From the UHGV virus genome UHGV-1370141: 64,000 nucleotides of DNA. The stretch is one strand, 5' to 3'. Within the stretch, counting starts at the first letter, position 1, and each line of letters starts with the position of its first letter. Below are positions 4,256-38,523 of the stretch, in pieces. Below the pieces are notes generated by a model, which did no database searches, had not been told where the DNA came from, and worked only from the letters and a program-made list of their open reading frames with translations. This DNA is from a virus. The translations under genes were made by a program, and so were the position numbers.

Positions 4256-4790
4256 ATTCCGTTTTCTGGAAAAGTTTTTAGAAACTACGAAACTGTTTGG
4301 CTGTTATGTGCAGATTAACGGCGAAGATTTCAATGACGATGTTAAGCGTTTATTAATTCGTCACGGAATCACCGTTGTTATCCCGATGTATTGTACAGAA
4401 CTTACCGAACTTTCTGTGGCCGAAATCGAGAAACAAAATCCAGGCTTTGAACAGCGCGTGCTGGAATTTCCTAAACATAAAATCGTTCTTTTACGCCGCG
4501 CTTTGCAAGAGCCGAGCGTTGAATCTGTTGCTGCTCTAGGTTTATCGTTTCCTGGTGTGACAATTTATGTCACACGAAACCCAGAGTCCACCATCGATGG
4601 TTTTTACGATGAAAGGGAAACTTTTCATAGTTTAGTTTATCCCGAGCTTACAGAAGACGAACGTCAAGGACTACATATTGACTGGGACTCAAATTTTGAT
4701 AGTAAGTTTCGTAAAATCGATTTTGATCTTCTGATCGAGCTGGGTTTAATTAAAGGAGAAGACGAATGCCTGCTCTTGACAAAAGCTTAA
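4218..4790 (+). CDS. hypothetical protein (190 aa)
   Basis: ORF overlapping upstream gene end, consistent with operon; start codon uncertain. Confidence 0.5.
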   Translation: MKPILIHNITKRKFRFLEKFLETTKLFGCYVQINGEDFNDDVKRLLIRHGITVVIPMYCTELTELSVAEIEKQNPGFEQRVLEFPKHKIVLLRRALQEPSVESVAALGLSFPGVTIYVTRNPESTIDGFYDERETFHSLVYPELTEDERQGLHIDWDSNFDSKFRKIDFDLLIELGLIKGEDECLLLTKA

Positions 4791-5440
4791 TAAACGAAGA
4801 TATTCGCGCCAGATTTTTTAGCCGACTTTCCCCAATTGATCGCCACGGAAACTTTTTGGGTCATATAGGTACTGAAGATCGCGGCAGAACGGGTTTTTGT
4901 ACAATGCTTCATTACAAACTACTCGATGGCATGTCCGATGAAGACGCGTTAGATCAAATGCGTAGTTACAATATGTCAGATATTGAAGCAAATTTCACCC
5001 TGAAAAAAGCAAAAGAGTTCATTTCAGATGTATTGGAGATAGATCTGGATGAAATTCGAAGTAACGTTCGTTCAACAGCACGATATATTTATTTAGATGT
5101 TCAAAAGATCATGAAGGCGTTGGAGTCGCGTTACGAAGCAGAACGTTACGAACCAATTCAGCTGAATGATCGTCATTTTCAGGCTGATGCAATCTCCCGA
5201 CAAATGTTAGGGCAATATATCCAATCTGAAACTGCGCCAGAATATTGGTTGGATACCGCCAATACGCGTTTAGAACCCTTTACATTAGAAGAATGTAAGG
5301 AACTATTGTCCGAGATCGTAAAACGTGATCAGAAACTGCATGGACAAATGACCGCGCAGAAAAAAGAGCTTCGCCTCTTAGCTGAACAGCGTGACTACGA
5401 CACTATCCGTGCACTTGCACTGGAAATGGGATTAGAATAA
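4766..5440 (+). CDS. hypothetical protein (224 aa)
   Basis: ORF overlapping previous gene, followed by strong terminator. Confidence 0.55.
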   Translation: MPALDKSLINEDIRARFFSRLSPIDRHGNFLGHIGTEDRGRTGFCTMLHYKLLDGMSDEDALDQMRSYNMSDIEANFTLKKAKEFISDVLEIDLDEIRSNVRSTARYIYLDVQKIMKALESRYEAERYEPIQLNDRHFQADAISRQMLGQYIQSETAPEYWLDTANTRLEPFTLEECKELLSEIVKRDQKLHGQMTAQKKELRLLAEQRDYDTIRALALEMGLE

Positions 5441-5444
5441 AAAA

Positions 5445-5487
5445 TACCTACCTCCGTAAAGGAGGTAGGTAAACTTATTATTTTTTT
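5445..5487. terminator. bidirectional rho-independent terminator between convergent gene blocks
   Basis: Perfect 11-bp inverted repeat tacctacctcc / ggaggtaggta with 5-nt loop, T-run downstream and A-run upstream. Confidence 0.75.
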
Positions 5488-5509
5488 GTTATAGTAGTTG
5501 ACTTAGCGG

Positions 5510-6040
5510 TTAAGCAGTAAAACCGTCCAATTCACCGTTGGTGGTGGCCAGGTCAATACGATTATCGACAACCTTCGGTGTAATTACGAAAGTTGCCATT
5601 ACACCCGGTTTATAACGGAGGTTCTGTTCAGTAACGGTGCACGTCACGGTACGCAGAGTGACGTTTTCATGTTCGTCTTTCTGGTCTTCGGTGCTGTACA
5701 CAACGTCACCTGGCGCGATAGCGTCGTCAGGTTTTACTTTGTTGATGTAATATTGTAACCAAGCGCGGAGTTCGTTTTCTTGAACCCAGCGAGACAGATC
5801 ATCAGTTAGTTCAATCCGTCCTACAACACCTGGCTCCAGACGATCGTAATGCAGTTCGATTGCACCTTTGAAATTCTCAGAACCTGGTAGTGCAGTCATG
5901 GTAACTTTGGTATTCTTACTTTCGCCTTCCAGCGCAGTAGGGAGACCAAAGGACACTTCTTTATCAGTAATCTGATGTGGTAGCTCAGTGTTAGCAGCAT
6001 TATAAAGCGCGACCAACATCATCTGGTTAGTAGCGGCCAT
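5510..6040 (-). CDS. hypothetical protein (176 aa), paralog of 6112..6684
   Basis: ORF; C-terminus ...GELDGFTA shared with neighbour. Confidence 0.6.
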   Translation of the reverse strand: MAATNQMMLVALYNAANTELPHQITDKEVSFGLPTALEGESKNTKVTMTALPGSENFKGAIELHYDRLEPGVVGRIELTDDLSRWVQENELRAWLQYYINKVKPDDAIAPGDVVYSTEDQKDEHENVTLRTVTCTVTEQNLRYKPGVMATFVITPKVVDNRIDLATTNGELDGFTA

Positions 6041-6111
6041 TATCTTAGGTCCTTAATAGAACAAGTTAGAGAAATATCGGGGGAGGTCACCCCCCCCCCG
6101 ATTTAACTTAC

Positions 6112-6684
6112 TTAGCCACCGACACCCGGCGCAGTGAAGCCATCAAGTTCACCTTCCAGACCGCCCAGTGCTACCTTCTCAGGAGCTGGGTTGGAATAAG
6201 TGAAAGTAGCAATAGTACCCGCCAGGAATTTAATGTGGCCATCGTTTACTTTGACAGTGTAAACTTTAGCACCGCTGTCGCCTTCGGATTTAACGATAGT
6301 GAGTTCGCTCTCTGCAAACGCGTCATCGACATAACCTTTAGTAACCATTTCTTTGTTCAGTTTGGTTACAATGGCAGAGTTTTCCAGATCGAGACTACCA
6401 GCTTGTTCGTAAGCTTTAGCACCGATCAGGTCTTGGGATGCCAGACGGATATAATGGAATTCTTTCTCGCCTTTGAAGTTCTGGCTTTCTGCCTTGGCGG
6501 TCAGTGTAATTTTGGTGTTACGACCAGCGTCTCCGCTGTGCGCTTCGACAGCACCAAAATCGACATCACCAACCGTCAGATTAGAAGCGGTTGCAGAGTT
6601 TTTAGCAATTACAGCTTCGATGAGCTGTTGTTTGAAGGCTTTAGCCATCTTTTTTACCTCGTAAGTGGTAGGGGTGGATTGCAT
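6112..6684 (-). CDS. hypothetical protein (190 aa), paralog of 5510..6040
   Basis: ORF; similar length and C-terminal GELDGFTA motif. Confidence 0.6.
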   Translation of the reverse strand: MQSTPTTYEVKKMAKAFKQQLIEAVIAKNSATASNLTVGDVDFGAVEAHSGDAGRNTKITLTAKAESQNFKGEKEFHYIRLASQDLIGAKAYEQAGSLDLENSAIVTKLNKEMVTKGYVDDAFAESELTIVKSEGDSGAKVYTVKVNDGHIKFLAGTIATFTYSNPAPEKVALGGLEGELDGFTAPGVGG

Positions 6685-6786
6685 AAGAAAGTTATTTTAG
6701 ACATTTCCTAAAATATAGATATGACGGTTGGCAGTAGGCGCTAACCTGAAAAAATAATTTTTCTTAATTTTAATAAGGGTGAGTTT

Positions 6787-7266
6787 ATGCTAAAACGCAT
6801 TCTCGTGGTCGTTGCTTTTGTAATGACGTTGGCAGGTTGTGCTATTCAGCCGAACGCAGAAGGTCAGTTCTCCACCGTACCTGTTGACCAACATGATATG
6901 GTCATTTACACCTGTACAGGTGCTTCTCAAGAATTCGTCGATTTTAAACCGGTACCGTCTAGCCTAAAACTGATGCCCCTTTCGGTGTTAGTCATGGATA
7001 CAGGGGCGAATTGGGTCGCTACATGGGACGAAGGTAAAATCGAATCTCCGCAACTTTATAAAGACCTGTTAGGTAAGGTGGACGGTAACTTAAACGTTGT
7101 TACCGGTGAGCGCTATTACCGTGTAAACGGGTTACTGTCAAAAACTCCAACGTTTGCGTATTCTACCATCAACTACAAAACAGGTGAAGGTAAAGGTGTA
7201 ACGTTCTTCAGATGTCACGAAGGTAGCATTCCGGATACCGGCACTATGCTGCACCCGGTAGAATAA
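6787..7266 (+). CDS. putative lipoprotein (159 aa)
   Basis: N-terminal signal peptide ending in lipobox LAGC; lone plus-strand gene in minus-strand block; own terminator. Confidence 0.6.
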   Translation: MLKRILVVVAFVMTLAGCAIQPNAEGQFSTVPVDQHDMVIYTCTGASQEFVDFKPVPSSLKLMPLSVLVMDTGANWVATWDEGKIESPQLYKDLLGKVDGNLNVVTGERYYRVNGLLSKTPTFAYSTINYKTGEGKGVTFFRCHEGSIPDTGTMLHPVE

Positions 7267-7270
7267 TAAA

Positions 7271-7306
7271 TACCCTCCTGCTTAGCAGGAGGGTAGGTTT
7301 ATTTTG
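7271..7306 (+). terminator. rho-independent terminator
   Basis: Inverted repeat accctcctgc / gcaggagggt followed by tttatttt. Confidence 0.7.
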
Positions 7307-7386
7307 TCCGTAGAACGCGCTAGAACGCGTTCTAAGACGGTTTATACAAAATAAGGTACAATCATCCTAAGTTTCGGTTTACGCGC

Positions 7387-7902
7387 TTAGATTTTAACTA
7401 AGGCGCTCCAATCGATAGGGCTTTGTTTCACGACTTTCGCAGTACCGCGATTCGGTGACCAGAACGTGATATTCGGTTGGTTACGAACGTCGATATGCAA
7501 CCAACTGATGTCGCATTCGATAAAGTGAATAAACGGAAACTCATCAGGATTAGCGGCAATATAATCGTGGACTTGTTTTACCGTTGAATCTAACAGTGTC
7601 GCGTCGAACGCATTACCGAACTTGTGCTGACTCCCTGAATCGGAATAGAGTTGTAACGCACGTTGTTTATAGTTACCGCCCTTAGGCTTTTCTTGATTGA
7701 TGAAAAAGTCTAAGGTTCTTAGGCCACGCTGTTGCGCAGCAGACGAGTTAATCACCATTCTGCCGAAACGGTTACGAATCTGTTGCAGCGAAATCATTAA
7801 CAACGGGTTCATAAACCGAATTGCAGAATCACCGTATTTGGCGATGTACGATTGCGGTACTAACTCTTTGAGTTTAAAGTTACTCGGATTTGGATGAAAC
7901 AT
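7387..7902 (-). CDS. peptidase M15-like cell wall hydrolase (171 aa)
   Basis: SQHKFGNAFD (SxHxxGxAxD) zinc-binding motif and later WLHID histidine, typical of M15/VanY-type peptidases. Confidence 0.5.
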   Translation of the reverse strand: MFHPNPSNFKLKELVPQSYIAKYGDSAIRFMNPLLMISLQQIRNRFGRMVINSSAAQQRGLRTLDFFINQEKPKGGNYKQRALQLYSDSGSQHKFGNAFDATLLDSTVKQVHDYIAANPDEFPFIHFIECDISWLHIDVRNQPNITFWSPNRGTAKVVKQSPIDWSALVKI

Positions 7903-8554
7903 CTTCCCTCCCAGACAGAAAAGCCCGTTTGATGTTCAGGTATTTGACATTAACGGGACAACCTGTGGTGATATCAACACGTTCGTGGTCAGGAATAGCA
8001 GGCTCCTTAAACTCACGAACGAACAAATAGTTTCGATTGTAATCTAACGTACGGTAATCGTTAGTGGTATAAGACGGCTTCGCGTTAGGGTCTACGTAAG
8101 CATCCCAACCGAACCCCGCCACGGCTTTATAAAACGTTTGGCAGATATACGGTGAGATTTCCAACGACTGCATAATACGCAGGAATGTTAAGTCAGAGAA
8201 CTCTTTATCGATAATACGCGAAACGTTACCACCCGGTGTCATGGGATAGCTACGCTCCGTGTTACATTTTTGATAGAGTAAGTCGTGAATGCAGGCCGCA
8301 GGTGCCCACGGTCCGTCAGGATGGAAAATTCCCTGGAGGTGTTCAGGAATTGACGCTAAATCGGTAACGAACCCTTTCGGTGCTGTTAACCACAGTTGCG
8401 TGTCAGGCAATACACCCGTTAAATAAACCGCACGGTCTAAGTGTACGTGGTCGTGATAAATCTCACGTAACGTAAACGGATAATGGTAATCCTCCGTTAA
8501 TACAAACCACTTATTGTCTAAACGTTTATATTGAAGCTTCTCCATTACCCACAC
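7880..8554 (-). CDS. hypothetical protein (224 aa)
   Basis: ORF. Confidence 0.5.
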   Translation of the reverse strand: MWVMEKLQYKRLDNKWFVLTEDYHYPFTLREIYHDHVHLDRAVYLTGVLPDTQLWLTAPKGFVTDLASIPEHLQGIFHPDGPWAPAACIHDLLYQKCNTERSYPMTPGGNVSRIIDKEFSDLTFLRIMQSLEISPYICQTFYKAVAGFGWDAYVDPNAKPSYTTNDYRTLDYNRNYLFVREFKEPAIPDHERVDITTGCPVNVKYLNIKRAFLSGREDVSSKSE

Positions 8555-8661
8555 CTTTCCTTACAAAAACCAGAAGAACTCTTGCCCACGCTTTTCGTCT
8601 TTACGTTTTCGACCAGACGTTAACGCTTTCCACAATAACGCTAAGAGTTTAGCAAACCAGT

Positions 8662-9252
8662 TCATTTTACTAACCCCGCTTTTACCGCATAATCTGCCAT
8701 TTCTCTGAAGACGCGGCCGTACCAACCGTAGGTGTATTTCTCGTTTCTCTTACGTTTTTCGGAGATTTCCGTGTAGTAAGTTACTTGGTGCGAGATTAAC
8801 GCAAAGATTAAAATGCTCAACCCTTCATCTTTACGATATTTCAGGTAGGCGTTCAACGCACCCAGTGTCTTAGGACCCATACCGCCGTCGGTGTCAATAT
8901 CTGCGTAAAGTTTCCCTTCGTTATTTAAAACGTTGAGAATACGTTGTAACGATTTCACACAGTTAGCACGCCCTGCGTTAATACCAAAATCAAACATCCG
9001 GTCTGCGAGTAACGGTGAGATAGCGAAAATCTCATCAAGTTTGAGCTTCTTCCACCAACCGCGATCGTAAATATCAAACGCTTGTGCACGGGTGAGGTCT
9101 TTCATTTTCCCTGTGTAGCCGTATTCGCGTGCAGTAGTTAAAGTTACACCGTGACAGGTTTCTCCACCTTTGTCGTCAGGGTCGTTGACGTACCCGCCTT
9201 CTAAATCCGTTTTGGATTCAATAATACCTTCTTTAGTCCAACGTTCAGCCAT
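8662..9252 (-). CDS. GH108-family muramidase with peptidoglycan-binding domain (endolysin-like, 196 aa)
   Basis: EGGYVNDPDDKGGETCHGVT motif typical of glycoside hydrolase family 108. Confidence 0.7.
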   Translation of the reverse strand: MAERWTKEGIIESKTDLEGGYVNDPDDKGGETCHGVTLTTAREYGYTGKMKDLTRAQAFDIYDRGWWKKLKLDEIFAISPLLADRMFDFGINAGRANCVKSLQRILNVLNNEGKLYADIDTDGGMGPKTLGALNAYLKYRKDEGLSILIFALISHQVTYYTEISEKRKRNEKYTYGWYGRVFREMADYAVKAGLVK

Positions 9253-9315
9253 TTTCGTTCAACTCCTCTTTTACACAAAAAAGAAAAGAGGGTGGGGATT
9301 ACCCCCACCCTGTAA

Positions 9316-9795
9316 TTATTTTTTCTTCTTAGCGCGTGATGGCTTAGCTGGCGGTGTTTCAACAGCCGGTTTACGTGCAACACGCACTGTAAAACCACCA
9401 ACCCAGGTCAGACACTCAGGACGGAAGAAAATACCGTGTTCGATTGCGCTACCGTCCAACGGTAACTCACCAACCTGTTCTACCCATACATCGTCTTCTG
9501 TAAGGGTTAGGCTATACTGTTCGTTAATTACGGGCAGTAGGTCAGCGGTAGTCGTTGCAGACTCCACTAACAGTTTCGGTAATACGTTCAGGAAATACAA
9601 ACCTGCGTCAATGCGGTTATACTGGAACGTTTGTTCGTTAGTGTAACCGAGATTCTTAATTGACGCAACTGTGATTTCGGTATTGTACGTACCGGTGGTT
9701 ACGACCGGGTCACCCAGCGTGACTTTGGTGGTGTCGAACTCAGCGTCTGGGTTAGCCTTTTTAATAAGGTCGAAGATAGTTTCTTGATTGGTCAT
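9316..9795 (-). CDS. hypothetical protein with lysine-rich C-terminus (159 aa)
   Basis: ORF. Confidence 0.5.
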   Translation of the reverse strand: MTNQETIFDLIKKANPDAEFDTTKVTLGDPVVTTGTYNTEITVASIKNLGYTNEQTFQYNRIDAGLYFLNVLPKLLVESATTTADLLPVINEQYSLTLTEDDVWVEQVGELPLDGSAIEHGIFFRPECLTWVGGFTVRVARKPAVETPPAKPSRAKKKK

Positions 9796-9808: not shown

Positions 9809-10657
9809 TTAATCTAAGAATCCCGGTAAGACCGGATTAGTCTGCGCTAATTCAATCTTCGACTTCGGACGATCGGTGCCGTTAAAGTGGATTAACAGAT
9901 TACCGGTCAGGTTAGAACACAGCGGGCTGAGCGTCAGCACCAACACACGCGTGAACTTCGTATTTGCGCCTTCGTAACCTGCGGTTGGACCATCGTAAAT
10001 AATCTTCGCACCATACAGGTTGTTAGCCGCGTTCTTAGGTACACTTACCCATTTCTCATCAACGACGTTAGCCAGTTTAGTGGCTAACTCAGCCAGGTCG
10101 ACGGTGTCGTTGATAGTAATCGGGTCAAGGTAATCTTTTTCTGCGGTGAAATCAATCGGGTGAGAATAAACCGCAGCGTTACCTTTCTTAGTAGACGGAT
10201 ACTCTACCAGATTCTCTAATTGAGTAACTGGTAACAGTTCAGTCAGGTCAATAGGATCACGCAGCGTAAGTGTTACTACACCGCACCACTCGTAAGATTT
10301 CTCGTTAGCGGTAAGCTGATGGGTTTCACCTTCAACTTTTGCGTCAACGATATCCGAGGGTAAAATATTTAGGTTGTATTTTGCGTTAATCGCATTAAGC
10401 AAATCCGATGCGGTTACCACACTGTCGTTACCGAACACCAACTCACCGGTTAGGTAGTCAGGTAAATTACGACGGTGGTAAGTCACGGTTAAAGTAGTAG
10501 ACTCATCGCCTTTGAGTTTAGAGGTCAGAACCACCTGGGTATCAACCCCAGTACCGGTAGGTTCTCCGATATCAACATCACTGAAAGTCAACGGTGGACT
10601 AATATTGTTTTCAGTGTTGATGAGTTTTAGCAGTTTCTGTTTTGACGTAAGAGACAT
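9809..10657 (-). CDS. hypothetical protein (282 aa)
   Basis: ORF. Confidence 0.5.
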   Translation of the reverse strand: MSLTSKQKLLKLINTENNISPPLTFSDVDIGEPTGTGVDTQVVLTSKLKGDESTTLTVTYHRRNLPDYLTGELVFGNDSVVTASDLLNAINAKYNLNILPSDIVDAKVEGETHQLTANEKSYEWCGVVTLTLRDPIDLTELLPVTQLENLVEYPSTKKGNAAVYSHPIDFTAEKDYLDPITINDTVDLAELATKLANVVDEKWVSVPKNAANNLYGAKIIYDGPTAGYEGANTKFTRVLVLTLSPLCSNLTGNLLIHFNGTDRPKSKIELAQTNPVLPGFLD

Positions 10658-13974: not shown

Positions 13975-14025
13975 GGTATATGCTCCTAAAATGGTTTTAG
14001 TTAAGTGAGAGCTTTCGTACTCTCA

Positions 14026-14050
14026 CCTAAGTAATATATATCTGAAAATA
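14026..14050 (-). promoter_or_regulatory. conserved promoter-like motif (copy 1) with adjacent hairpin
   Basis: Minus-strand TCAGATATATATTACTTAGG, one of three near-identical copies; followed by hairpin 14005..14026; upstream of gene 13480..13974. Confidence 0.5.
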
Positions 14051-17497: not shown

Positions 17498-17568
17498 AAT
17501 TGTCCTTCCTTCTTAATGTACTCTTCAACTCAGCTATAACTAGTGGAGTGAACGTAATTTTCACTCTC

Positions 17569-17597
17569 CCCTAGGTAATATATATCTGAGAAAAAAT
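17569..17597 (-). promoter_or_regulatory. conserved promoter-like motif (copy 2) with adjacent hairpin
   Basis: Minus-strand CTCAGATATATATTACCTAGG; hairpin gagtgaa/ttcactc at 17546..17566; upstream of 17054..17497. Confidence 0.5.
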
Positions 17598-19393: not shown

Positions 19394-20032
19394 TTAAACA
19401 CGTGAACCGTATATTGCACCTACTGCGTCCCATCTTGGCGCATTACCAGTAACAGCTTTACCAGCTGCTCCGCCGTTATATTCTGTACCGTTACCATGAG
19501 TATTACATCTTCCTCCAGCAGCACCGACATTACCACCCGAACCGCCTGTATATGCACTAAGAGACCCCTCACCAACAGATCCTCTACCAGGAGCGGAAAT
19601 AGTACCAGCAGCTGCACCGGAACTCATATGAGAGGAAGACCCACCAGCACCGCCTGGCGAGTTAGAACCACCGTTGCCTCCTCTGCCGTATACTGTAACC
19701 CCAGGATTGATGATGAGTGTAATATACGAATTTGGAAGATTGCTAGGGAATTCTAAACAAGGAACCCCGCTACTATAAGACACTAAATCCCCTGTAATGG
19801 TCACAACGACAGCAGTAGAGCCTAAAGAACGTAAATAGTTAATAAGAGTATCCTTATTATAGCTATGGTTAGCACCAATAGAATAATGGACCTCTTTTGA
19901 TTTTCCCGCCAATTGCGACATCCAGCCTGGAACCGGCACACCAAGTGTGCGCATCGCGCCAGACATCCATTCGTTACCAGCTTCAGCTTTTGCTGAAGAA
20001 CCAATCCAACCACCTACGCCGACAACTGCCAC
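19394..20032 (-). CDS. glycine-rich adhesin-like protein (212 aa)
   Basis: Gly-rich segments (GGNGGSNSPGGAGGSS...) separating other sequence, reminiscent of T2-type gp38 adhesins. Confidence 0.5.
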   Translation of the reverse strand: MAVVGVGGWIGSSAKAEAGNEWMSGAMRTLGVPVPGWMSQLAGKSKEVHYSIGANHSYNKDTLINYLRSLGSTAVVVTITGDLVSYSSGVPCLEFPSNLPNSYITLIINPGVTVYGRGGNGGSNSPGGAGGSSSHMSSGAAAGTISAPGRGSVGEGSLSAYTGGSGGNVGAAGGRCNTHGNGTEYNGGAAGKAVTGNAPRWDAVGAIYGSRV

Positions 20033-23000
20033 TAGGATCTCCCTTTGATTTCGTTAACCTCTTGACGCAACGCTTTCATACCCTCTACTAACAGCGCAAT
20101 AACGCCATTGTAGTTTAGACGTAAACGTTTTTCGCCTGAAATGGCATCATCATCCTCAGACACAAGTTCAGGTAACGCTTCTAATGCGTCTTGAGCAATT
20201 AGACCTACAGAAGTTTGCCAACCGTCATCCGGATGCTGAATTTCGTACAAATAACCAGTTAGTAACTCTAACCGATCCAAAGCCTTATCCAGCTTCACCA
20301 GATTACGTTTGTTACGACGGTCAGAACGAATCTGTACGTCGTTAAACGAACCGTTACCGCTGCCAGTAACGTTATGACCAAAGGTTACTTGGCCATTAGC
20401 GTTATTAAAATACAACGGACGTAGTCCGTTCCAGGAACCCGTTGCAGCTTGTCCGGCGTCGGTTACTAAGAAATAGGTATTGGCACCATCGTTACGTAAC
20501 ATAAAGCCGTAGTTGCCGTAAGCGATTCGAAAATCAGGGTACTTAGTGACCAATTTACCGTTAACGGTTAAATCGCCACCTATAGTACCGCCCCCTGACG
20601 GTAACGCACCGATGTCACCAGCGTTAGGTTTGTTGTGTGTGCTGTAAATCAGATAGACGGTACCGTCTGTTAGTCCTGCGGGTTTATTAGCCGTATAGCT
20701 TGGCGATGTGTGAATCGTTACGTTGGCATTACTAGTGTAGTCCCACTGAATATTAACACCGGTGGCGTAATTACCTATTTCAACATAAATATCGTAAGTG
20801 TCACCAGATGTATTCACCCATGCAAAATTAGTGAAGCCGACTGAGGTCAGTCGCCATAACGCACCAGTAATACCTTTTGGATTCCCATTTCCTGCACGCA
20901 GAACCAGCTCAGAGATACCTGCTTGATGCGGGGAACCAACGTTAAACCCTGCACCACCAATCAGGCTTATGTAAACCACGGAACTGGCTTGTGGCATCGT
21001 TACAGTTGCTAGTTTGAACCATCCGGCACCACCATTAAAAGACACAGTTGTTGTGTTCGCGGCACCAACATTTCGTAAGAATTTTCTCTTATCTGGAATA
21101 TCGGCACCGTTCTGTTTCTTCTGCAATGACCCACCGGCCAATTCTACAGTTTGGCCAAGATTTAAACTTTCAGCCGTTATTTCGATGTTTTTAGTGCCGT
21201 CAAACGCAATACCGTTGATGGTTCTTGCAGTTTGCAACTTTGTTGCAGTGGCCGCGTTTCCGGTGGTCGACTGATTACCCGTTTGGTTTACTCCAGGAAG
21301 ATTAACGTCTTTCGTCCCATCGAAAACCACACCACCGATCCTACGTCCTGTTTGTAACTTGGTAGCGGTTGCTGCATTACCTGTCGTATTCTGGTTGCCT
21401 TGCTGGTTAACCCCCGGTAAATTGATATCCCCAGTACCGTCAAAGGTAACGCCGCCGATTCTGCGAGCGGTTTTCAGTTTCGTCGCGGTAGCGGCGTTGC
21501 CGGTAGTATCTTGATTACCTGTGGTATTTACGCCAGGAATACTGTCACGGGCAGTATAAACTTGTGCCCAATCTGACCACGGCGCATCTGCCGTATCACG
21601 TCGACTACGAATATAAACTGGCGCGTGCGCACCACTCGTGCCCGACCAACCAATTAACAACTCGCCTTCGCCTAGCGCAGCAGAACCACCCAAATGCAGT
21701 AAGTTACCATAAGCGGTCGGATAACCGTTATTGTAAACTTCGTACATCTGAATACCAGGCGTACCTTTGTTTGAACCAGTCAGTGCAGTAACACGTCCAC
21801 GTCCTACCAACGTGTTGATATTGATGTCTCTAGACCCATCAAATTTCACACCGTTGATGTTTCGAGCCGTTTGTAATTTGGTTGCGGTTCCCGCGTTCCC
21901 AGAGGTGTTTTGATTACCTTGTTGGTTAACACCTGGGAGGTTAACGTCGCCGCTACCGTCGAAGGCGACCCCACCAATTCTACGTGCCGTCTTTAATTTA
22001 GTGGCGGTTGAAGCATTGCCTGTTAACTCACCTGCTAACCCTTTTGCAAAGGTCTGTTTTTCTGCCCAGGTGTGCGCTGCGTTCAATACAGGCATCTGGC
22101 GTGGCGTAATTGTTCGACTACCTTTCTCACCAGCGATACGAACAGCAAAGAAGCGATAGTTGGCAGTAGACACCGTACTACGCCAAACCAACATGCTCCG
22201 ACCGGTGCCGGTGTCATCAGACGGCCCTACAAGGATGTTAACTAAGTTACCGTCAATCACACCCCAATCCATTCCCGCAGGAATATTTTTCATGGTGTTC
22301 AACGGTGACGTTAACATCTGACCGGGAACGAAGTCGTAGGTTTGCCAGTCTAACGGGTCAACCTTAGCAGCTACACCACCAATGCCTAAAACTAACGGAA
22401 GTGAATACGAGGTGAAAACCTCTCGCCACCCACTCCAAATGTTACCCGTACGGATACGTTGGAATTTACGACCTTTAGTTTCTCTACCCGTGCCGTATGT
22501 GGTATAATTCTGTTCGACCCCTGTACCGTCTAAGCGTAAGGTAACTTCACAAACGCCTACCACGGTTTCGCTAGAAGAACCGATAAGTGGACCGTTAGTT
22601 GCCTCACCAGTGACACTGAAACGACCCGGTTTAACGAGATCGTTAAAATTGGCTTTAAAGAAAGCACCGTCAGTCTGATAACCAACCTGAATCCAATCTT
22701 CCCATTGTGGGTTTGATGAATCCCACGTTGCAGTCAAACCACGGACATACATTGTGCCACGACGCGTAGTGTATCGCTGCAACCGTCCGAAAAGACCACC
22801 TTCCATTACTTCTAGTACGCCTTGCGCGTTACCGCCTTCTTCAGGGTAATGCCGGTCGAACACCGCTAACGAACTGGACGAGTTCCGCCAGTTACCCATA
22901 TGCTCAGCGCCACCCAGAGAGTTCAAGTCTATAGAGGTAGACAGTGGGCGAACACCAGTGGTTACCATTCTCCACGGTGACCAGGGTCCATTAGTTCCGT

Positions 23001-24513
23001 TCCACACACCTGACAACATACGGTTGTACACGTTACCATTACGACAGGTAAAACGTTGCGCGCCACTGTAGTTGCCCGCTTTATACACTTCCAGATAACC
23101 GACTGCACCGTCTTCTGGGAAGTGTTTTGCCATCGACGCATTGGTTGATGTCGACTTAGACCACGTTCCTGTGTAATTAGCATCTGGAGCAAATGTGTTA
23201 ATATCAGCATCTACAGGCATTTCGCCACGGAAACGCAGGTAGGTATCAGGAGATAGGCCGATGTTGCGAGCAAAAGTTTCTTTATCTGGGATATCAGCGC
23301 CGTTAGAGTTTTTCTGTAACGCACCATTCGCTTTATCGACGGTAGTTTTCAAACCCAGGAAGTTAATGATATCCGCCGTCGACCCTTTCGCTAACAAATC
23401 GCGCGCAGTCGAGGTGAAATCCGCTAATCCCACCCGATTACTACCGGTAAAGTAAGGGAGTTTGTTTGCAGCGGTGGTGACTGCGGCAATCGCTGTCAGT
23501 AACGGACTTAACGGCTGTTTACCCGCGAGTTGGTTCGTTATCGTTGTCGCAAAGTTAGGATCGTTTCCTAACGCGGCTGCAATTTCTGATAACGTATCTA
23601 ACGTCTCGGGTGAAGAGTCCACTAATTCAGCAATCGCTTGCCGTACCCATGCCGTCGTTGAGACTGTCGTGTCGTTAGAATCCGCAGCAGGAGTCGGAGC
23701 TTTTACTACGCCAGTAAACGTCGGCGAGTGACGGTTTGCTTTTAACTGCAAATCATCATTTAACTGCTTAACCGTTGACGGTGTAGCCGCTTCCGTAACC
23801 GAGTCACTGGTTAAGGTATTATTAAGTTTAACGATACCTTTACTGGACGTTGTTGCATCAACGTTACCTTTTGCAGCGATTTCCTCTGCACGCTTAGCGG
23901 CTGCCTCAGAACGCGTTGCCGCATTCTCTGCGGTTTCTTTGTCTGAGGTAACTTGCGTTGCTGTAGCCTCTACAGAGGCTTTTGACGACTCTACTGACGC
24001 GACAGCTTCGTTAACTGCCGTAAGCGACTGTTCTACTTGACCGGCTTGTGTGGCAACAGTTTCTGCTTTCTTCGTAACGGTAGTCACCGCTTGTGTGACG
24101 TTGGCCTCGCTTGCCGCTACCGCTTGTGCTTTCTCATTAACGGACACAACCTGGGTATCTACCGCCGTTTTCGCGGCTAACACTTCAGTGTGTTTTGTAC
24201 CGACCTCAGTTGCTTTTTCGGTTACAGTTTGCGCTTGTTGAGCAACCGTAGCCGCAACGGTGTCAGTTTGTTGTTTTGCTGTTTCTGCTAAATTCTTTGC
24301 TTGTGTAGCCTGAGTTGCAGCTTCTTGTGATTGTGTTGCTGCTGCTTGTGCATCAGACACCGCATTACGCACGGTGTCAATATCTGCAACGATCTCACGG
24401 ACTGGTAACTTATAATCTTTCTCATCTTTGGAGAAAAGTAAAACACCTTCACCGATATCCCCGGTGTATGGACGTAAGTCGTGTAAACGAATTTTCTTTA
24501 CCGCTTTAGCCAT
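20032..24513 (-). CDS. long tail fibre protein (1493 aa) with C-terminal S74-type intramolecular chaperone domain
   Basis: N-terminal anchor domain; multiple repeats ...GNAATATKLQTARRIGGVxFDGTxDxNLPGVNQ...; C-terminus ...SDRRNKRNLVKLDKALDRLELLTGYLYEIQ... typical of self-cleaving chaperone. Confidence 0.85.
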   Translation of the reverse strand: MAKAVKKIRLHDLRPYTGDIGEGVLLFSKDEKDYKLPVREIVADIDTVRNAVSDAQAAATQSQEAATQATQAKNLAETAKQQTDTVAATVAQQAQTVTEKATEVGTKHTEVLAAKTAVDTQVVSVNEKAQAVAASEANVTQAVTTVTKKAETVATQAGQVEQSLTAVNEAVASVESSKASVEATATQVTSDKETAENAATRSEAAAKRAEEIAAKGNVDATTSSKGIVKLNNTLTSDSVTEAATPSTVKQLNDDLQLKANRHSPTFTGVVKAPTPAADSNDTTVSTTAWVRQAIAELVDSSPETLDTLSEIAAALGNDPNFATTITNQLAGKQPLSPLLTAIAAVTTAANKLPYFTGSNRVGLADFTSTARDLLAKGSTADIINFLGLKTTVDKANGALQKNSNGADIPDKETFARNIGLSPDTYLRFRGEMPVDADINTFAPDANYTGTWSKSTSTNASMAKHFPEDGAVGYLEVYKAGNYSGAQRFTCRNGNVYNRMLSGVWNGTNGPWSPWRMVTTGVRPLSTSIDLNSLGGAEHMGNWRNSSSSLAVFDRHYPEEGGNAQGVLEVMEGGLFGRLQRYTTRRGTMYVRGLTATWDSSNPQWEDWIQVGYQTDGAFFKANFNDLVKPGRFSVTGEATNGPLIGSSSETVVGVCEVTLRLDGTGVEQNYTTYGTGRETKGRKFQRIRTGNIWSGWREVFTSYSLPLVLGIGGVAAKVDPLDWQTYDFVPGQMLTSPLNTMKNIPAGMDWGVIDGNLVNILVGPSDDTGTGRSMLVWRSTVSTANYRFFAVRIAGEKGSRTITPRQMPVLNAAHTWAEKQTFAKGLAGELTGNASTATKLKTARRIGGVAFDGSGDVNLPGVNQQGNQNTSGNAGTATKLQTARNINGVKFDGSRDININTLVGRGRVTALTGSNKGTPGIQMYEVYNNGYPTAYGNLLHLGGSAALGEGELLIGWSGTSGAHAPVYIRSRRDTADAPWSDWAQVYTARDSIPGVNTTGNQDTTGNAATATKLKTARRIGGVTFDGTGDINLPGVNQQGNQNTTGNAATATKLQTGRRIGGVVFDGTKDVNLPGVNQTGNQSTTGNAATATKLQTARTINGIAFDGTKNIEITAESLNLGQTVELAGGSLQKKQNGADIPDKRKFLRNVGAANTTTVSFNGGAGWFKLATVTMPQASSVVYISLIGGAGFNVGSPHQAGISELVLRAGNGNPKGITGALWRLTSVGFTNFAWVNTSGDTYDIYVEIGNYATGVNIQWDYTSNANVTIHTSPSYTANKPAGLTDGTVYLIYSTHNKPNAGDIGALPSGGGTIGGDLTVNGKLVTKYPDFRIAYGNYGFMLRNDGANTYFLVTDAGQAATGSWNGLRPLYFNNANGQVTFGHNVTGSGNGSFNDVQIRSDRRNKRNLVKLDKALDRLELLTGYLYEIQHPDDGWQTSVGLIAQDALEALPELVSEDDDAISGEKRLRLNYNGVIALLVEGMKALRQEVNEIKGRS

Positions 24514-28713: not shown

Positions 28714-29088
28714 TTATTCGGTTAATTCTCCACACAACACAACGTCGATACCAAACATCATTCCCACTTCTTGAAGTTTGTTCGCCAGTAAGTGACGATG
28801 ACAAAACTTACCTGCGGGACAATAACACATCAAAACCAAATCATCGTGTCTGAGTAATGACACTAAAACTTCGGCGTTGGTATCTAACAGTCGTTCGAGC
28901 TTATATAAATACTTTATCGTGTACTCACGTTCAGCGACAGTGTCCTTGGCAGAGTTTTTATACGCCATTAAGAAATCCCAGTCTGGGGCGAGTTCCTTTC
29001 TCCCCGATTTGACTGTAATATCCACTGCGTGAAATCCTTTCTGCTTAGCTAACCGCCACTTAGCGAGTTGTAACGTCCAGATACGCAT
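28714..29088 (-). CDS. hypothetical protein (124 aa), possibly DUF488-like
   Basis: ORF; CYCPAGKFCHRH motif. Confidence 0.4.
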   Translation of the reverse strand: MRIWTLQLAKWRLAKQKGFHAVDITVKSGRKELAPDWDFLMAYKNSAKDTVAEREYTIKYLYKLERLLDTNAEVLVSLLRHDDLVLMCYCPAGKFCHRHLLANKLQEVGMMFGIDVVLCGELTE

Positions 29089-29285
29089 TAGGAACGGGTC
29101 TGCGATTCAGCCATCAGCGCACAACTTTTCACAGCCTGTGCATGAAGTTCTGTACCCGGTGTGTAATCCTTTATACAATCCTGATACAATTCGCTTTTCT
29201 TTTCTAAAACACGATTGTCACACTCGGCACTTGCTAGTGCCCCTGCGATAAGGATAAAAACTAGAATCGGCAACCAAATTTTCAT
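29088..29285 (-). CDS. small secreted/membrane protein (65 aa)
   Basis: N-terminal hydrophobic segment; paralog of next small ORF (shared Y-x-x-C ... V-x-x-C pattern). Confidence 0.4.
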   Translation of the reverse strand: MKIWLPILVFILIAGALASAECDNRVLEKKSELYQDCIKDYTPGTELHAQAVKSCALMAESQTRS

Positions 29286-29494
29286 TGCCCACCTCCCATT
29301 CGTTTAGCGTATTCCGTACATGCCATTACTAATTCAGCATAACGTGGGTTATCGACAGTGGTACCTGACATACATTCACGATAAAGGGACTCTTTACGCG
29401 ATTCGTCAGACGTCTTAACGTAGAACATCAGCATCGTTACAATCAGCGCAGTTGAAACAATTGCTGAGATGATATATCCGTCATTTATTTTCAT
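29282..29494 (-). CDS. small membrane protein (70 aa)
   Basis: N-terminal transmembrane segment; paralog of 29088..29285. Confidence 0.4.
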   Translation of the reverse strand: MKINDGYIISAIVSTALIVTMLMFYVKTSDESRKESLYRECMSGTTVDNPRYAELVMACTEYAKRMGGGQ

Positions 29495-38439: not shown

Positions 38440-38493
38440 GGTAATTAATCCTAATCTGTAGAACAAGTCGTAAAAGAGATTACGATGTAATCT

Positions 38494-38523
38494 CACTAAG
38501 GTAATATATATCTGAGAAAAAAT
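38494..38523 (-). promoter_or_regulatory. conserved promoter-like motif (copy 3) with adjacent hairpin
   Basis: Minus-strand CTCAGATATATATTACCTTAGTG; hairpin gagattac/gtaatctc 38476..38494; upstream of HTH gene. Confidence 0.5.

What the first reader, a model, noticed from the sequence alone, without database searches (positions are those of the whole stretch)
6787..7306. Lone plus-strand lipoprotein gene with its own terminator inside a minus-strand block (moron-like)
6787..7266 encodes a protein with a classic signal peptide plus lipobox (LAGC) and is the only plus-strand gene between 5.5 and 52 kb, followed by a strong terminator. Phage lipoproteins in such positions often mediate superinfection exclusion by masking the receptor (as T5 Llp does) or modify the cell envelope.
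Basis: partly seen in the sequence, partly recalled or inferred. Interest (0 to 1): 0.5.

Follow-up and report, generated by a model that had tools for sequence, protein, structure and literature searches.

The report
Conserved late lipoprotein gene in jumbo phage
The lone plus-strand gene is real and encodes an outer-membrane-type lipoprotein, but it is a conserved gene of SPN3US-like and Goslar-like jumbo phages with a phage late-type promoter rather than a moron, and its function, most likely at the host envelope, is still untested.

Summary
ORF 6787..7266 (+, 159 aa) has a textbook lipoprotein signal (K3/R4, hydrophobic core, LAGC, Cys18, Ala at +2). It is the only credible plus-strand gene between 5.5 and 52.3 kb. 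A strong, bidirectional terminator follows at 7271-7295.

"Moron" does not fit. The window is a Seoul-like (SPN3US-type) nucleus-forming jumbo phage. The gene (phrog_9559; SPN3US gp159, Goslar gp088) was found wherever it was searched for: 55 phage records and 14 IMG/VR contigs. Its GC matches its neighbours and dN/dS is about 0.1.

In the 14 non-Goslar loci mapped it lies head-to-head with a DUF7941 virion-fibre gene. An invariant TATGAC lies 38-70 nt upstream in 15 of 15 loci, matching the phiKZ late-promoter motif TATG, and the phage's early-promoter motif is absent.

The AlphaFold model is a disulfide-closed beta-barrel. No sequence or profile link to Llp, spanins or MliC/PliC was found.

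SPN3US virions lack the protein. Goslar virion preparations contain about 700 copies per virion, alongside host outer-membrane proteins.

Between close lineages the whole promoter-gene-terminator unit is replaced as a block (66-70% identity against 84-94% in the flanks).

Best reading: a late outer-membrane lipoprotein acting in exclusion or progeny protection. That function is inferred, not shown.

The parts
6649..6786 (.). Divergent intergenic control region shared by the lipoprotein gene (+) and DUF7941 gene 6112..6648 (-)
   Evidence: The true start of the minus-strand gene is Met13 of the listed ORF. This follows from the gene calls in relatives and from the PHROG alignment starting at residue 13. 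The region aligns across 8 phages with only a few invariant islands (alignment A2).
6720..6725 (+). Invariant TATGAC. Inferred phiKZ-type non-virion RNA polymerase (late) promoter core TATG, with predicted start at G6723 and a 64-nt leader
   Evidence: Present in 15 of 15 Seoul-like/Erwinia loci at -38 to -70 from the ATG. It is usually the only TATG in the 170 nt upstream. Goslar has TATGGA at -40. The phiKZ late consensus is T(-3)ATG(+1), and all four bases are required in vitro (PMC4666361). The extended early-type motif TTTCAGATATATATTACNTAGGTGAGAG is absent here.
6682..6685 (-). TATG (minus strand; TTATGCA at 6680-6686), the inferred late promoter core of the divergent DUF7941 virion-protein gene
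   Evidence: GCATA is invariant in alignment A2. The Wellington and ChrisDB equivalents read TATGAC and TATGAA on the minus strand. The SPN3US homologue gp160 is an abundant virion protein.
6775..6783 (+). Shine-Dalgarno-like AAGGGTGAG
   Evidence: Read directly from the sequence, 3 nt upstream of the ATG.
6787..6837 (+). Signal peptide (residues 1-17), ending in the lipobox L-A-G before Cys18
   Evidence: The pattern is conserved while the sequence drifts across the family.
6838..7266 (+). Mature lipoprotein (Cys18-Glu159) plus stop codon: a beta-barrel domain with invariant Cys43 and Cys143
   Evidence: AlphaFold2 mean pLDDT is 81.6 and 86-94 per 10-residue block over residues 31-110 and 121-140 (82 for 111-120). 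The model is all-beta with 11 strands. C18, C43 and C143 are invariant in 21 diverse members. The protein matches phrog_9559 at E=1.7e-71. dN/dS is about 0.1.
7271..7305 (.). Bidirectional intrinsic terminator: hairpin 7271-7295 with T-rich tails on both strands
   Evidence: The hairpin is kept in all relatives through compensatory sequence changes (alignment A3).
7307..7341 (.). Second hairpin containing the palindrome AGAACGCGTTCT, between the terminator and the stop codon of 7387..7902
   Evidence: Free energy is -19.2 kcal/mol on the minus strand (z -5.2). The sequence itself is conserved across genera (Asesino identical; Wellington and SPN3US similar). It is unique in the window. Its role is unknown.

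Best explanation
What it is (well supported). The gene is a conserved, separately transcribed gene of Seoul-like (SPN3US-type) and Goslar-like chimalliviruses. Its product is exported by Sec. It is then lipidated at Cys18 and cleaved by the host Lgt/LspA pathway. Because residue +2 is Ala rather than Asp, the Lol system should send it to the outer membrane. There it would hang a roughly 140-residue, disulfide-closed beta-barrel into the periplasm.

How it is expressed (inferred). Transcription most likely starts at G6723, from a TATG-type promoter read by the phage's non-virion RNA polymerase. This would be in the late (or middle) phase. The divergent DUF7941 virion-fibre gene appears to use the same type of promoter. 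Transcription ends at the bidirectional terminator.

What it does (inferred, not shown). The protein probably occupies or alters an envelope component, or a periplasmic step, that virions of this phage group need for adsorption or penetration. The infected, or persistently infected, cell and its debris would then stop taking up or trapping sibling virions. This is the logic of T5 Llp, Cor or Ltp, without any homology to them.

The confidence of 0.4 is a compromise. Identity and localisation are about 0.9, late expression about 0.65, and the exclusion/progeny-protection role about 0.3-0.35.
For: Signal and sorting:
- The lipoprotein rule is met in 24 of 27 members. Residue +2 is A, S or V and never D. 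The mature part always has exactly two Cys.
- C18, C43 and C143 are the most conserved positions in the family.

Real, conserved gene:
- dN/dS is about 0.1 and GC equals the neighbours'.
- Homologues occur in 55 phage records and 14 IMG/VR contigs, all 220-250 kb jumbo phages of Salmonella, Erwinia, Escherichia or Proteus.
- Only 14 hits appear among 1.84 billion representatives, so the family is narrow and phage-restricted.

Fold:
- The model is a confident all-beta barrel.
- Its nearest folds are periplasmic or lipoprotein 8-stranded barrels.

Promoter:
- TATGAC is invariant in 15 of 15 loci.
- The phiKZ late motif is TATG (PMC4666361).
- The conserved early-type motif found elsewhere in the window and in SPN3US is absent here.

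Link to host recognition:
- The head-to-head pairing with a DUF7941 gene holds in all 14 non-Goslar loci mapped.
- DUF7941 proteins are proposed host-recognition fibres (bioRxiv 10.64898/2026.04.21.720040).
- In Goslar the gene directly follows the tail-fibre and tail-fibre-assembly genes.

Specificity-cassette behaviour:
- Against the L007 and L019 lineages, promoter, gene and terminator are 66-70% identical.
- The flanking genes are 84-94% identical.

Lifestyle:
- The window is about 93.5% identical to 224-kb contigs in Salmonella isolate assemblies.
- Such contigs are the "persistent" Seoul-like phages of bioRxiv 10.1101/2024.12.31.630880.

SPN3US gp159 is absent from the virion proteome.
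Against: - No functional test exists, and there is no homology to any characterised exclusion protein.
- Known exclusion genes such as T5 llp and T4 imm/sp are early genes (from memory). This promoter looks late.
- The family's core motif (D-x-G-A-x-W-V-A-T...G-K-x-E-S-P-Q-L-Y-K-D-L-L-G-K) is kept across phages of different hosts.
- SPN3US is reported to adsorb to flagella, which argues against simple masking of one outer-membrane receptor.
- Goslar gp088 is the fourth most abundant unmodelled protein in purified virions. Its estimate is about 490-1160 copies per virion at 77.8% coverage.
- That could mean true virion association. It also shows that Goslar virions still co-purify with outer-membrane material.
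- The TATG motif is short, and the timing of expression has not been measured in any relative that I could read.
Confidence: 0.4

Rival explanations
1. The protein is genuinely virion-associated. After lysis, or by an unknown route, it binds the DUF7941 fibre cloud or baseplate and travels with the particle. It would then be an accessory adsorption or infection factor rather than a cell-resident protein.
For: - Goslar gp088 (YP_009820773.1) is estimated at about 740 copies per virion, with 20 peptides and 77.8% coverage in CsCl-purified virions.
- The gene is head-to-head with, and appears to share a promoter type with, an abundant DUF7941 virion protein.
- In lineage L019 the DUF7941 neighbour and the lipoprotein are both divergent, at 66% each.
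Against: - The lipoprotein signal is the most conserved feature of the family. Export to the periplasm separates the protein from cytoplasmic virion assembly.
- SPN3US gp159 is not among the 83 virion proteins detected.
- The Goslar preparation also contains OmpA, OmpC, OmpF, Lpp and Pal peptides, plus chimallin and PhuZ. Co-purifying envelope fragments are therefore a sufficient explanation.
- The N-terminal peptide C20-K31 was not seen although neighbouring peptides were, which fits a lipidated membrane protein.
Confidence: 0.2
2. It is a lysis accessory: an o-spanin-like or other outer-membrane-weakening or lysis-timing factor. In this window it is convergent with the lysis module (M15-like peptidase, DUF1353, 34-aa peptide, GH108 endolysin).
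For: - An outer-membrane lipoprotein with a late-type promoter lies next to the GH108 endolysin cluster in the window, SPN3US, Asesino and Wellington.
- No spanin is annotated in SPN3US.
- The phiKZ o-spanin is a lipoprotein of about 120 codons (PMC12894885).
Against: - There is no adjacent or overlapping same-strand i-spanin gene, and no other gene for a membrane-spanning or lipobox protein lies next to it; the nearest predicted membrane proteins are over 20 kb away.
- The mature part is a well-folded barrel, not a short proline-rich tether.
- The lysis module sits on the other side in ChrisDB, Caitlin and Huxley and is absent from the Goslar neighbourhood, whereas the DUF7941 pairing is constant.
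- SPN3US has a separate textbook-looking pair. The gene at 180017-180487 has an N-terminal transmembrane segment and a Pro-rich tail. The gene at 180497-180976 is a lipoprotein with LTGC.
Confidence: 0.12
3. It is a periplasmic inhibitor of a peptidoglycan hydrolase, MliC/PliC/PhiA-like in fold and T4 Spackle-like in logic. It would block the virion-borne wall-degrading enzyme of incoming sibling phages, or restrain the phage's own endolysin.
For: - MliC is likewise an outer-membrane lipoprotein with Cys residues near the start and end of its barrel domain (sequence); that they form a disulfide joining first and last strands is from memory.
- A BFVD neighbour from phage RB49 is named "Lysozyme inhibitor LprI-like".
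- The convergent neighbour, the M15-like peptidase, is the homologue of SPN3US gp158, which was detected in virions but not in tailless particles.
Against: - There is no PF09864 match in any of 18 members.
- hhalign of the mature family against an MliC alignment gives probability below 1%. The only aligned stretch is the signal peptide.
- Foldseek against the PDB finds nothing at E<=0.001.
- The link to the hydrolase genes is not conserved.
Confidence: 0.1
4. It is a classical moron: a recently acquired, dispensable host-fitness gene (Bor/Lom-like) with its own host-type promoter.
For: It is a lone gene on the opposite strand with its own terminator. A weak sigma-70-like match lies at 6728-6755.
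Against: - The gene was found in every relative the searches returned, in a fixed position, with typical GC and under purifying selection.
- The sigma-70 match count in the region is no higher than in shuffles (3 found against 3.4 expected).
- The conserved upstream element is TATGAC.
Confidence: 0.03

Closest known systems
phrog_9559 / SPN3US gp159 (SPN3US_0159), Goslar gp088 (YP_009820773.1), Asesino gp174, Wellington gp172, ChrisDB gp174
   Same: These are direct homologues at 34-62% identity (97% to uncultured relatives). They share the lipobox, the Cys pair and the core motif. Outside Goslar they share the head-to-head position with a DUF7941 gene.
   Different: None has an assigned function. 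UniProt's automatic name is "Lipoprotein" for some. Goslar gp088 is listed only as a high-copy virion-associated protein of unknown function, and the passages of that preprint read here do not mention a lipoprotein signal (a search of its main text for "lipoprotein" finds none).
T5 Llp and Cor (phi80/T1/N15) exclusion lipoproteins
   Same: They are phage-encoded outer-membrane lipoproteins made from small autonomous genes near adsorption genes. Their proposed logic is to make the infected cell and its debris refractory to the phage.
   Different: There is no sequence or fold match. This protein is about twice the size. Its promoter looks late rather than early. The relatives do not share an FhuA-type receptor, and SPN3US is reported to use flagella.
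MliC/PliC/PhiA lysozyme (peptidoglycan hydrolase) inhibitors (PF09864)
   Different: No Pfam or profile-profile similarity was found. The inhibitory loop motifs are not present. The barrel here is larger, with 11 predicted strands.
Two-component spanin o-subunit (lambda Rz1, phiKZ gp141.1)
   Same: Both are phage-encoded outer-membrane lipoproteins. The promoter here looks late, as expected for a lysis gene.
   Different: There is no i-spanin partner gene. The periplasmic part is a folded barrel rather than an extended proline-rich segment. SPN3US has another, better candidate pair.

Membership tests
Bacterial lipoprotein (Lgt/LspA substrate; PROSITE PS51257-type signal) | Positively charged N-region, an uncharged hydrophobic stretch, and a lipobox [LVI][ASTVI][GAS]C with Cys at position 15-35 | tested here: met
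   K3 and R4, then VVAFVM-TLAG-C18. The rule was coded from memory and run on 27 family members, of which 24 pass. The three failures are a partial sequence, a mis-called start and a short signal.
Bacterial lipoprotein (Lgt/LspA substrate; PROSITE PS51257-type signal) | Outer-membrane sorting: no Asp at position +2 (Lol-avoidance rule of Enterobacteriaceae, established knowledge) | tested here: met
   Residue +2 is Ala here, and A, S or V in all members.
Bacterial lipoprotein (Lgt/LspA substrate; PROSITE PS51257-type signal) | Actual acylation and signal peptidase II cleavage | not testable with these tools
   Only indirect evidence exists. In the Goslar mass-spectrometry table the peptide C20-K31 is missing while D32-K44 and later peptides are present.
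phrog_9559 | Significant full-length profile match | tested here: met
   E=1.7e-71, residues 2-150 against profile positions 2-152 of 166.
Moron | Own promoter and terminator, transcribed independently of its neighbours | tested here: met
   Opposite strand, conserved upstream TATGAC and a conserved terminator. The promoter is phage-type, not host-type.
Moron | Presence/absence polymorphism among otherwise similar genomes | tested here: not met
   The gene was found, once per record, in 55 phage records and 14 IMG/VR contigs. It sits at the same place relative to DUF7941 in the loci mapped. The variation seen is allelic replacement, not gain or loss.
Moron | Atypical base composition | tested here: not met
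   GC is 0.44-0.455 in the gene against 0.42-0.47 around it.
T5 Llp / Cor exclusion lipoproteins | Sequence or fold homology to Llp or Cor | tested here: not met
T5 Llp / Cor exclusion lipoproteins | Gene placed next to the receptor-binding or tail-fibre gene | tested here: inconclusive
   This holds in Goslar, where it follows the tail fibre and its assembly protein. Elsewhere it sits next to DUF7941 fibre genes, not the annotated tail fibres.
T5 Llp / Cor exclusion lipoproteins | Expression confers resistance to the cognate phage by inactivating its receptor | not testable with these tools
   This needs plating and adsorption assays.
o-spanin (Rz1-like) | Gene embedded in, overlapping or immediately downstream of an i-spanin gene on the same strand | tested here: not met
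   Both neighbours are on the opposite strand, and no ORF with a transmembrane segment is nearby.
o-spanin (Rz1-like) | Short, proline-rich, largely unstructured periplasmic segment | tested here: not met
   The model is an 11-strand barrel with pLDDT of 82 or more per 10-residue block over residues 31-140.
MliC/PliC (PF09864) | Match to the family profile | tested here: not met
   No PF09864 hit at E<=1 in 18 members. hhalign against an MliC alignment of 123 sequences gives probability 0.7%.
MliC/PliC (PF09864) | Eight-stranded barrel with a first-to-last-strand disulfide | tested here: inconclusive

The most novel reading that the evidence does not exclude
An exported, lipid-anchored phage protein might end up as a high-copy passenger on released virions, at about 700 copies per Goslar particle. 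It could be bound to the DUF7941 fibre cloud or carried on outer-membrane lipid patches. Alternatively, or in addition, it could be the allele-specific exclusion determinant that lets Seoul-like and Goslar-like "virulent" jumbo phages persist for years in Salmonella and E. coli isolates. Either reading would tie an uncharacterised envelope protein to two recent open observations in chimallivirus biology.
Probability: 0.12. Interest if true: 0.7.

Novelty: new member of a known kind. Interest (0 to 1): 0.35.

Why it matters
Phage-encoded outer-membrane lipoproteins are a known kind of thing (Llp, Cor, Bor, Rz1). This family has no assigned function. It was found throughout the enterobacterial nucleus-forming jumbo phages searched.

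Three features make it a cheap, well-defined target for a first functional test:
- its fixed pairing with the DUF7941 fibre genes;
- its exchange as a whole transcription unit between close lineages;
- its unexplained abundance in Goslar virion preparations.

If it is an exclusion or anti-readsorption factor, it bears on phage-cocktail design with SPN3US-like phages. It would also bear on how these phages persist in clinical Salmonella isolates. If it is not, it remains an ordinary conserved hypothetical protein.

Tried and rejected
- Megablast of 5400-8600 against the phage collection found no match. The phage is known only from assemblies and metagenomes at this identity.
- Pfam found nothing for the protein, alone or across 18 members.
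- A PDB search by sequence profile returned only chance hits at E>=0.09.
- Foldseek against the PDB found nothing at E<=0.001. Foldseek against afdb50 was unavailable.
- MliC idea: I recovered E. coli MliC exactly and spent a large search on its homologues. That search returned only close enterobacterial relatives. hhalign showed no relationship.
- o-spanin idea: rejected on gene context and fold.
- Rfam on 6000-9500 found nothing above chance.
- Enrichment of TATG, TATGAC and TATGCA in intergenic DNA of the window is only modest: 19 against 12.5, 3 against 0.8 and 2 against 0.8 expected. The promoter call therefore rests on cross-phage conservation.
- Representative-library hit P0021 (5404 aa, 20 stretches) is a tandem-repeat protein and a false positive. 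P0024 and P0028 are scrambled copies of the family sequence, probably gene-calling artefacts.
- The search for related loci with the wide alignment A4 failed for lack of a conserved stretch. With A1 it returned only the same clade.
- The SPN3US infection time-course proteome (J Virol 2019, PMC6384053) is not held, so expression timing could not be read from data.
Full report
**1. The observation**

The sequence at 6787..7266 (+) is an ATG-started ORF of 159 codons, with AAGGGTGAG 3 nt upstream. Its N-terminus is MLKRILVVVAFVMTLAGC. That gives two basic residues, an uncharged hydrophobic run, the lipobox LAGC with Cys18, and Ala at +2.

I coded a PROSITE PS51257-type rule from memory. It is met here and in 24 of 27 family members. 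The exceptions are a partial sequence, a mis-called start and a short signal. The mature part always has exactly two further cysteines.

A greedy ORF map shows all other credible genes from 5510 to 52280 on the minus strand. The remaining plus-strand ORFs lie inside longer minus-strand ORFs. This is also the only lipobox ORF in the window.

The hairpin at 7271-7295 has 11 bp, including 7 G-C pairs. It folds at -21.5 kcal/mol (z -5.5) and is followed by GGTTTATTTT. It folds equally well on the other strand (-21.9 kcal/mol) with a T-rich tail. It is therefore a bidirectional terminator shared with the convergent gene 7387..7902.

**2. What genome this is**

Megablast against deposited phages finds nothing. 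The protein does have homologues in 55 phage records. All are 233-251 kb jumbo phages apart from one 197-kb record, and their hosts are Salmonella, Erwinia, Escherichia and Proteus. They include SPN3US, Asesino, phiEaH2, Wellington, ChrisDB, Machina and, at 34% identity, Goslar.

The closest relatives are 97% and 72% identical at the protein level. They sit on contigs of about 220-225 kb in Salmonella isolate assemblies and metagenomes. Local DNA identity to two of them is about 93.5%. A preprint describes exactly such "Seoul-like" and "Goslar-like" chimalliviruses as persistent virulent phages in bacterial isolates (10.1101/2024.12.31.630880). The window therefore belongs to an SPN3US-type nucleus-forming jumbo phage.

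**3. Not a moron**

- The gene is SPN3US_0159 (gp159), Asesino gp174, Wellington gp172, ChrisDB gp174 and Goslar gp088. It belongs to phrog_9559, of unknown function.
- Every record that matched holds a single copy.
- A profile search of 1.84 billion representatives finds only 14 hits, so the family is narrow and phage-borne.
- GC equals that of the flanks.
- dN/dS is about 0.1.

Mapping neighbours by tblastn gives one constant feature across 14 non-Goslar loci. The gene is head-to-head with a DUF7941 gene. The lysis module (GH108 endolysin, a 34-44-aa ORF, DUF1353, and sometimes an M15-like peptidase) behaves differently:
- It is the convergent neighbour in the window, SPN3US, Asesino and Wellington.
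- It lies on the other side in ChrisDB, Caitlin and Huxley, where the downstream neighbours are virion structural paralogues.
- In every arrangement mapped the lipoprotein gene remains a lone gene against the local strand.
- In Goslar it follows the tail-fibre and tail-fibre-assembly genes on the same strand, within a DUF7941-rich region.

**4. Transcription signals**

I aligned the intergenic region shared with the DUF7941 gene (138 bp in the window). That gene's real start is Met13 of the listed ORF. Across eight phages little is conserved except TATGAC at 6720-6725 and GCATA at 6681-6685, which reads TATGC on the minus strand.

TATGAC occurs 38-70 nt upstream of the start codon in 15 of 15 Seoul-like/Erwinia loci. 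It is usually the only TATG there. Goslar has TATGGA at -40.

In phiKZ the late promoters of the non-virion RNA polymerase are defined by T(-3)ATG(+1). All four bases are required in vitro (PMC4666361; PMC7598289).

The window and SPN3US also share a long AT-rich motif, TTTCAGATATATATTAC(C/T)TAGGTGAGAG. There are 3 copies in the window and 6 in SPN3US, with none expected by chance. In the window two of the three copies lie in intergenic gaps between genes. This motif fits the "extended, well-conserved" early-promoter class. It is absent upstream of the lipoprotein gene.

I therefore infer late (or middle) transcription from G6723, of the same promoter type as the divergent DUF7941 gene. The SPN3US homologue of that gene, gp160, is an abundant virion protein.

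This is inference. TATG is short and is only modestly enriched in intergenic DNA. No expression data for a relative were accessible.

The terminator hairpin is kept in all relatives through compensatory changes.

**5. The protein**

With 18 homologues as the alignment, AlphaFold2 gives mean pLDDT 81.6, with 86-94 per 10-residue block over residues 31-110 and 121-140 (82 for 111-120). The model is an all-beta domain of 11 strands.

Across 21 diverse members the invariant positions are C18, C43, G73, R109, Y111, S126, G133, G135 and C143. That is the lipid-attachment cysteine plus one cysteine in the first long strand and one in the last. I read the latter two as a barrel-closing disulfide, which suits a periplasmic protein.

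I tested the MliC/PliC idea directly:
- No member hits PF09864.
- A profile-sequence comparison aligns only the signal peptides.
- hhalign of the mature family against 123 MliC sequences gives probability 0.7%.

Membership is not supported. Only a fold-level likeness remains.

**6. Virion or cell envelope?**

- In SPN3US, gp159 is not among the 83 proteins detected in purified particles. Its neighbour gp160 (DUF7941) is abundant there. gp158, the M15-like peptidase, was detected in virions but not in tailless particles (PMC5105663).
- In Goslar, gp088 (YP_009820773.1) has 20 peptides and 77.8% coverage. Its estimate is 490-1160 copies per virion. It is the fourth most abundant unmodelled protein, listed as of unknown function (10.64898/2026.04.21.720040).

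The same Goslar preparation contains OmpA, OmpC, OmpF, Lpp and Pal peptides, and by the authors' account nuclear-shell and PhuZ assemblies. In the stored part of the peptide table, D32-K44 and later peptides of gp088 are present. Nothing covering C20-K31 appears, as expected if the N-terminus is acylated.

I read this as a highly expressed late outer-membrane lipoprotein co-purifying with envelope fragments. Genuine virion association cannot be excluded and is kept as the main rival.

**7. Other rivals**

o-spanin:
- No same-strand partner with a transmembrane segment exists, and the domain is folded.
- SPN3US has an unannotated but typical-looking pair elsewhere. The gene at 180017-180487 has a transmembrane segment and a Pro-rich tail. 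The gene at 180497-180976 is a lipoprotein with LTGC.
- The characterised phiKZ cassette has overlapping i- and o-spanin genes (PMC12894885).

Classical moron: contradicted by section 3.

**8. Cassette behaviour**

Against the L007 and L019 lineages, the block of promoter region, gene and terminator region is 66-70% identical at the DNA level. The flanking genes are 84-94% identical. In L019 the DUF7941 neighbour is divergent too, at 66%. dS within the gene is saturated while dN/dS stays near 0.1.

The whole transcription unit is thus replaced by a distant allele between otherwise close phages. This pattern is typical of specificity determinants at the phage-host or phage-phage interface. It is the best indirect support for an exclusion or adsorption-related role.

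**9. Verdict**

Shown or strongly supported:
- a real, conserved, purifying-selected gene for an outer-membrane-type lipoprotein with a beta-barrel domain;
- an autonomous unit with a conserved TATGAC element and a conserved bidirectional terminator;
- a fixed partnership with a DUF7941 fibre gene.

Inferred:
- late transcription by the phage non-virion polymerase;
- a disulfide bond between Cys43 and Cys143;
- outer-membrane, periplasm-facing location.

Proposed, with about one chance in three: the protein acts on an envelope component or periplasmic step used in adsorption or penetration by this phage group. It would give exclusion of siblings and/or protection of progeny, possibly relevant to persistent infection.

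Against this stand three points:
- the late-type promoter;
- the conservation of the core motif across hosts;
- the reported flagellar receptor of SPN3US.

The finding is an uncharacterised family within a known kind of phage gene. It is moderately interesting, mainly because of the Goslar virion-preparation result and the cassette-like exchange.

Noticed in passing
window 7307-7341: A second hairpin built on the palindrome AGAACGCGTTCT lies between the bidirectional terminator and the stop codon of 7387..7902. Its sequence, not only its structure, is conserved in Asesino (identical core), SPN3US and Wellington. It is unique in the window. It could be a protein-binding site or an RNA 3'-end element.
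   Followed up: partly
window 8561-8665 (-): A 34-aa ORF (MNWFAKLLALLWKALTSGRKRKDEKRGQEFFWFL) lies between the DUF1353 gene and the GH108 endolysin. It is called in the close relatives L006-L011, and small ORFs occupy the same slot in Asesino (gp172), Wellington (gp174) and ChrisDB (gp179). It has a hydrophobic N-terminal half followed by a cluster of basic residues. It is a candidate small lysis factor (holin-, antiholin- or disruptin-like). No PHROG hit.
   Followed up: partly
window 14020-14043, 17564-17587, 38490-38513 (all minus strand); SPN3US 56298, 65417, 94243, 113990, 165691, 223281: A long AT-rich motif, TTTCAGATATATATTAC(C/T)TAGGTGAGAG, occurs 3 times in the window and 6 times in SPN3US, with none expected by chance. 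Two of the window copies lie in intergenic gaps upstream of genes. It is probably the early (virion RNA polymerase) promoter consensus of Seoul-like phages and resembles the phiKZ early TATATTAC core (recalled from memory).
   Followed up: partly
L015 30017-30976 (SPN3US 180017-180976): An unannotated candidate two-component spanin pair in SPN3US. The first gene encodes a 156-aa protein with an N-terminal transmembrane segment and a Pro-rich C-terminus. It is followed 10 nt later by a gene for a 159-aa lipoprotein (MKLFLAAILVLLLTGC...). Both PHROGs are of unknown function.
   Followed up: partly
window 5510-6040 and 6112-6648 (-), also 9316-9795 and 9809-10657 (-): Four DUF7941 paralogues flank the lysis module and the lipoprotein gene. 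The two upstream ones end in a shared GELDGFTA motif. The copy number upstream of the lipoprotein gene varies from 1 to 3 among relatives. [quoted passage not shown]
   Followed up: partly
window 29088-29494 (-): Two adjacent small ORFs. The 70-aa one has an N-terminal transmembrane segment. The 65-aa one has a cleavable-looking signal peptide (...GALASA|EC). Neither has a PHROG match, and their function is unknown.
   Followed up: no
window 20032-24513 (-): The 1493-aa ORF shares repeated segments, at about 69-73% DNA identity, with the Goslar tail-fibre gene gp090 (P1 gpS-like). It is likely the long tail fibre of this phage.
   Followed up: no
window 4766-6648 compared with L009, L011, L007 and L019: The region just upstream of the lipoprotein cassette (190-aa hypothetical gene, DUF4376 gene, DUF7941a) is also much more divergent between close lineages than the lysis and structural genes downstream: 57-71% against 92-100% DNA identity to L009. 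This suggests a wider variable host-interaction module.
   Followed up: partly
representative-library proteins P0024, P0028, P0021: P0024 and P0028 contain segments of the lipoprotein sequence in permuted order, probably artefacts of gene calling or assembly. P0021 is a 5404-aa tandem-repeat protein that scores only by summing 20 weak stretches.
   Followed up: yes
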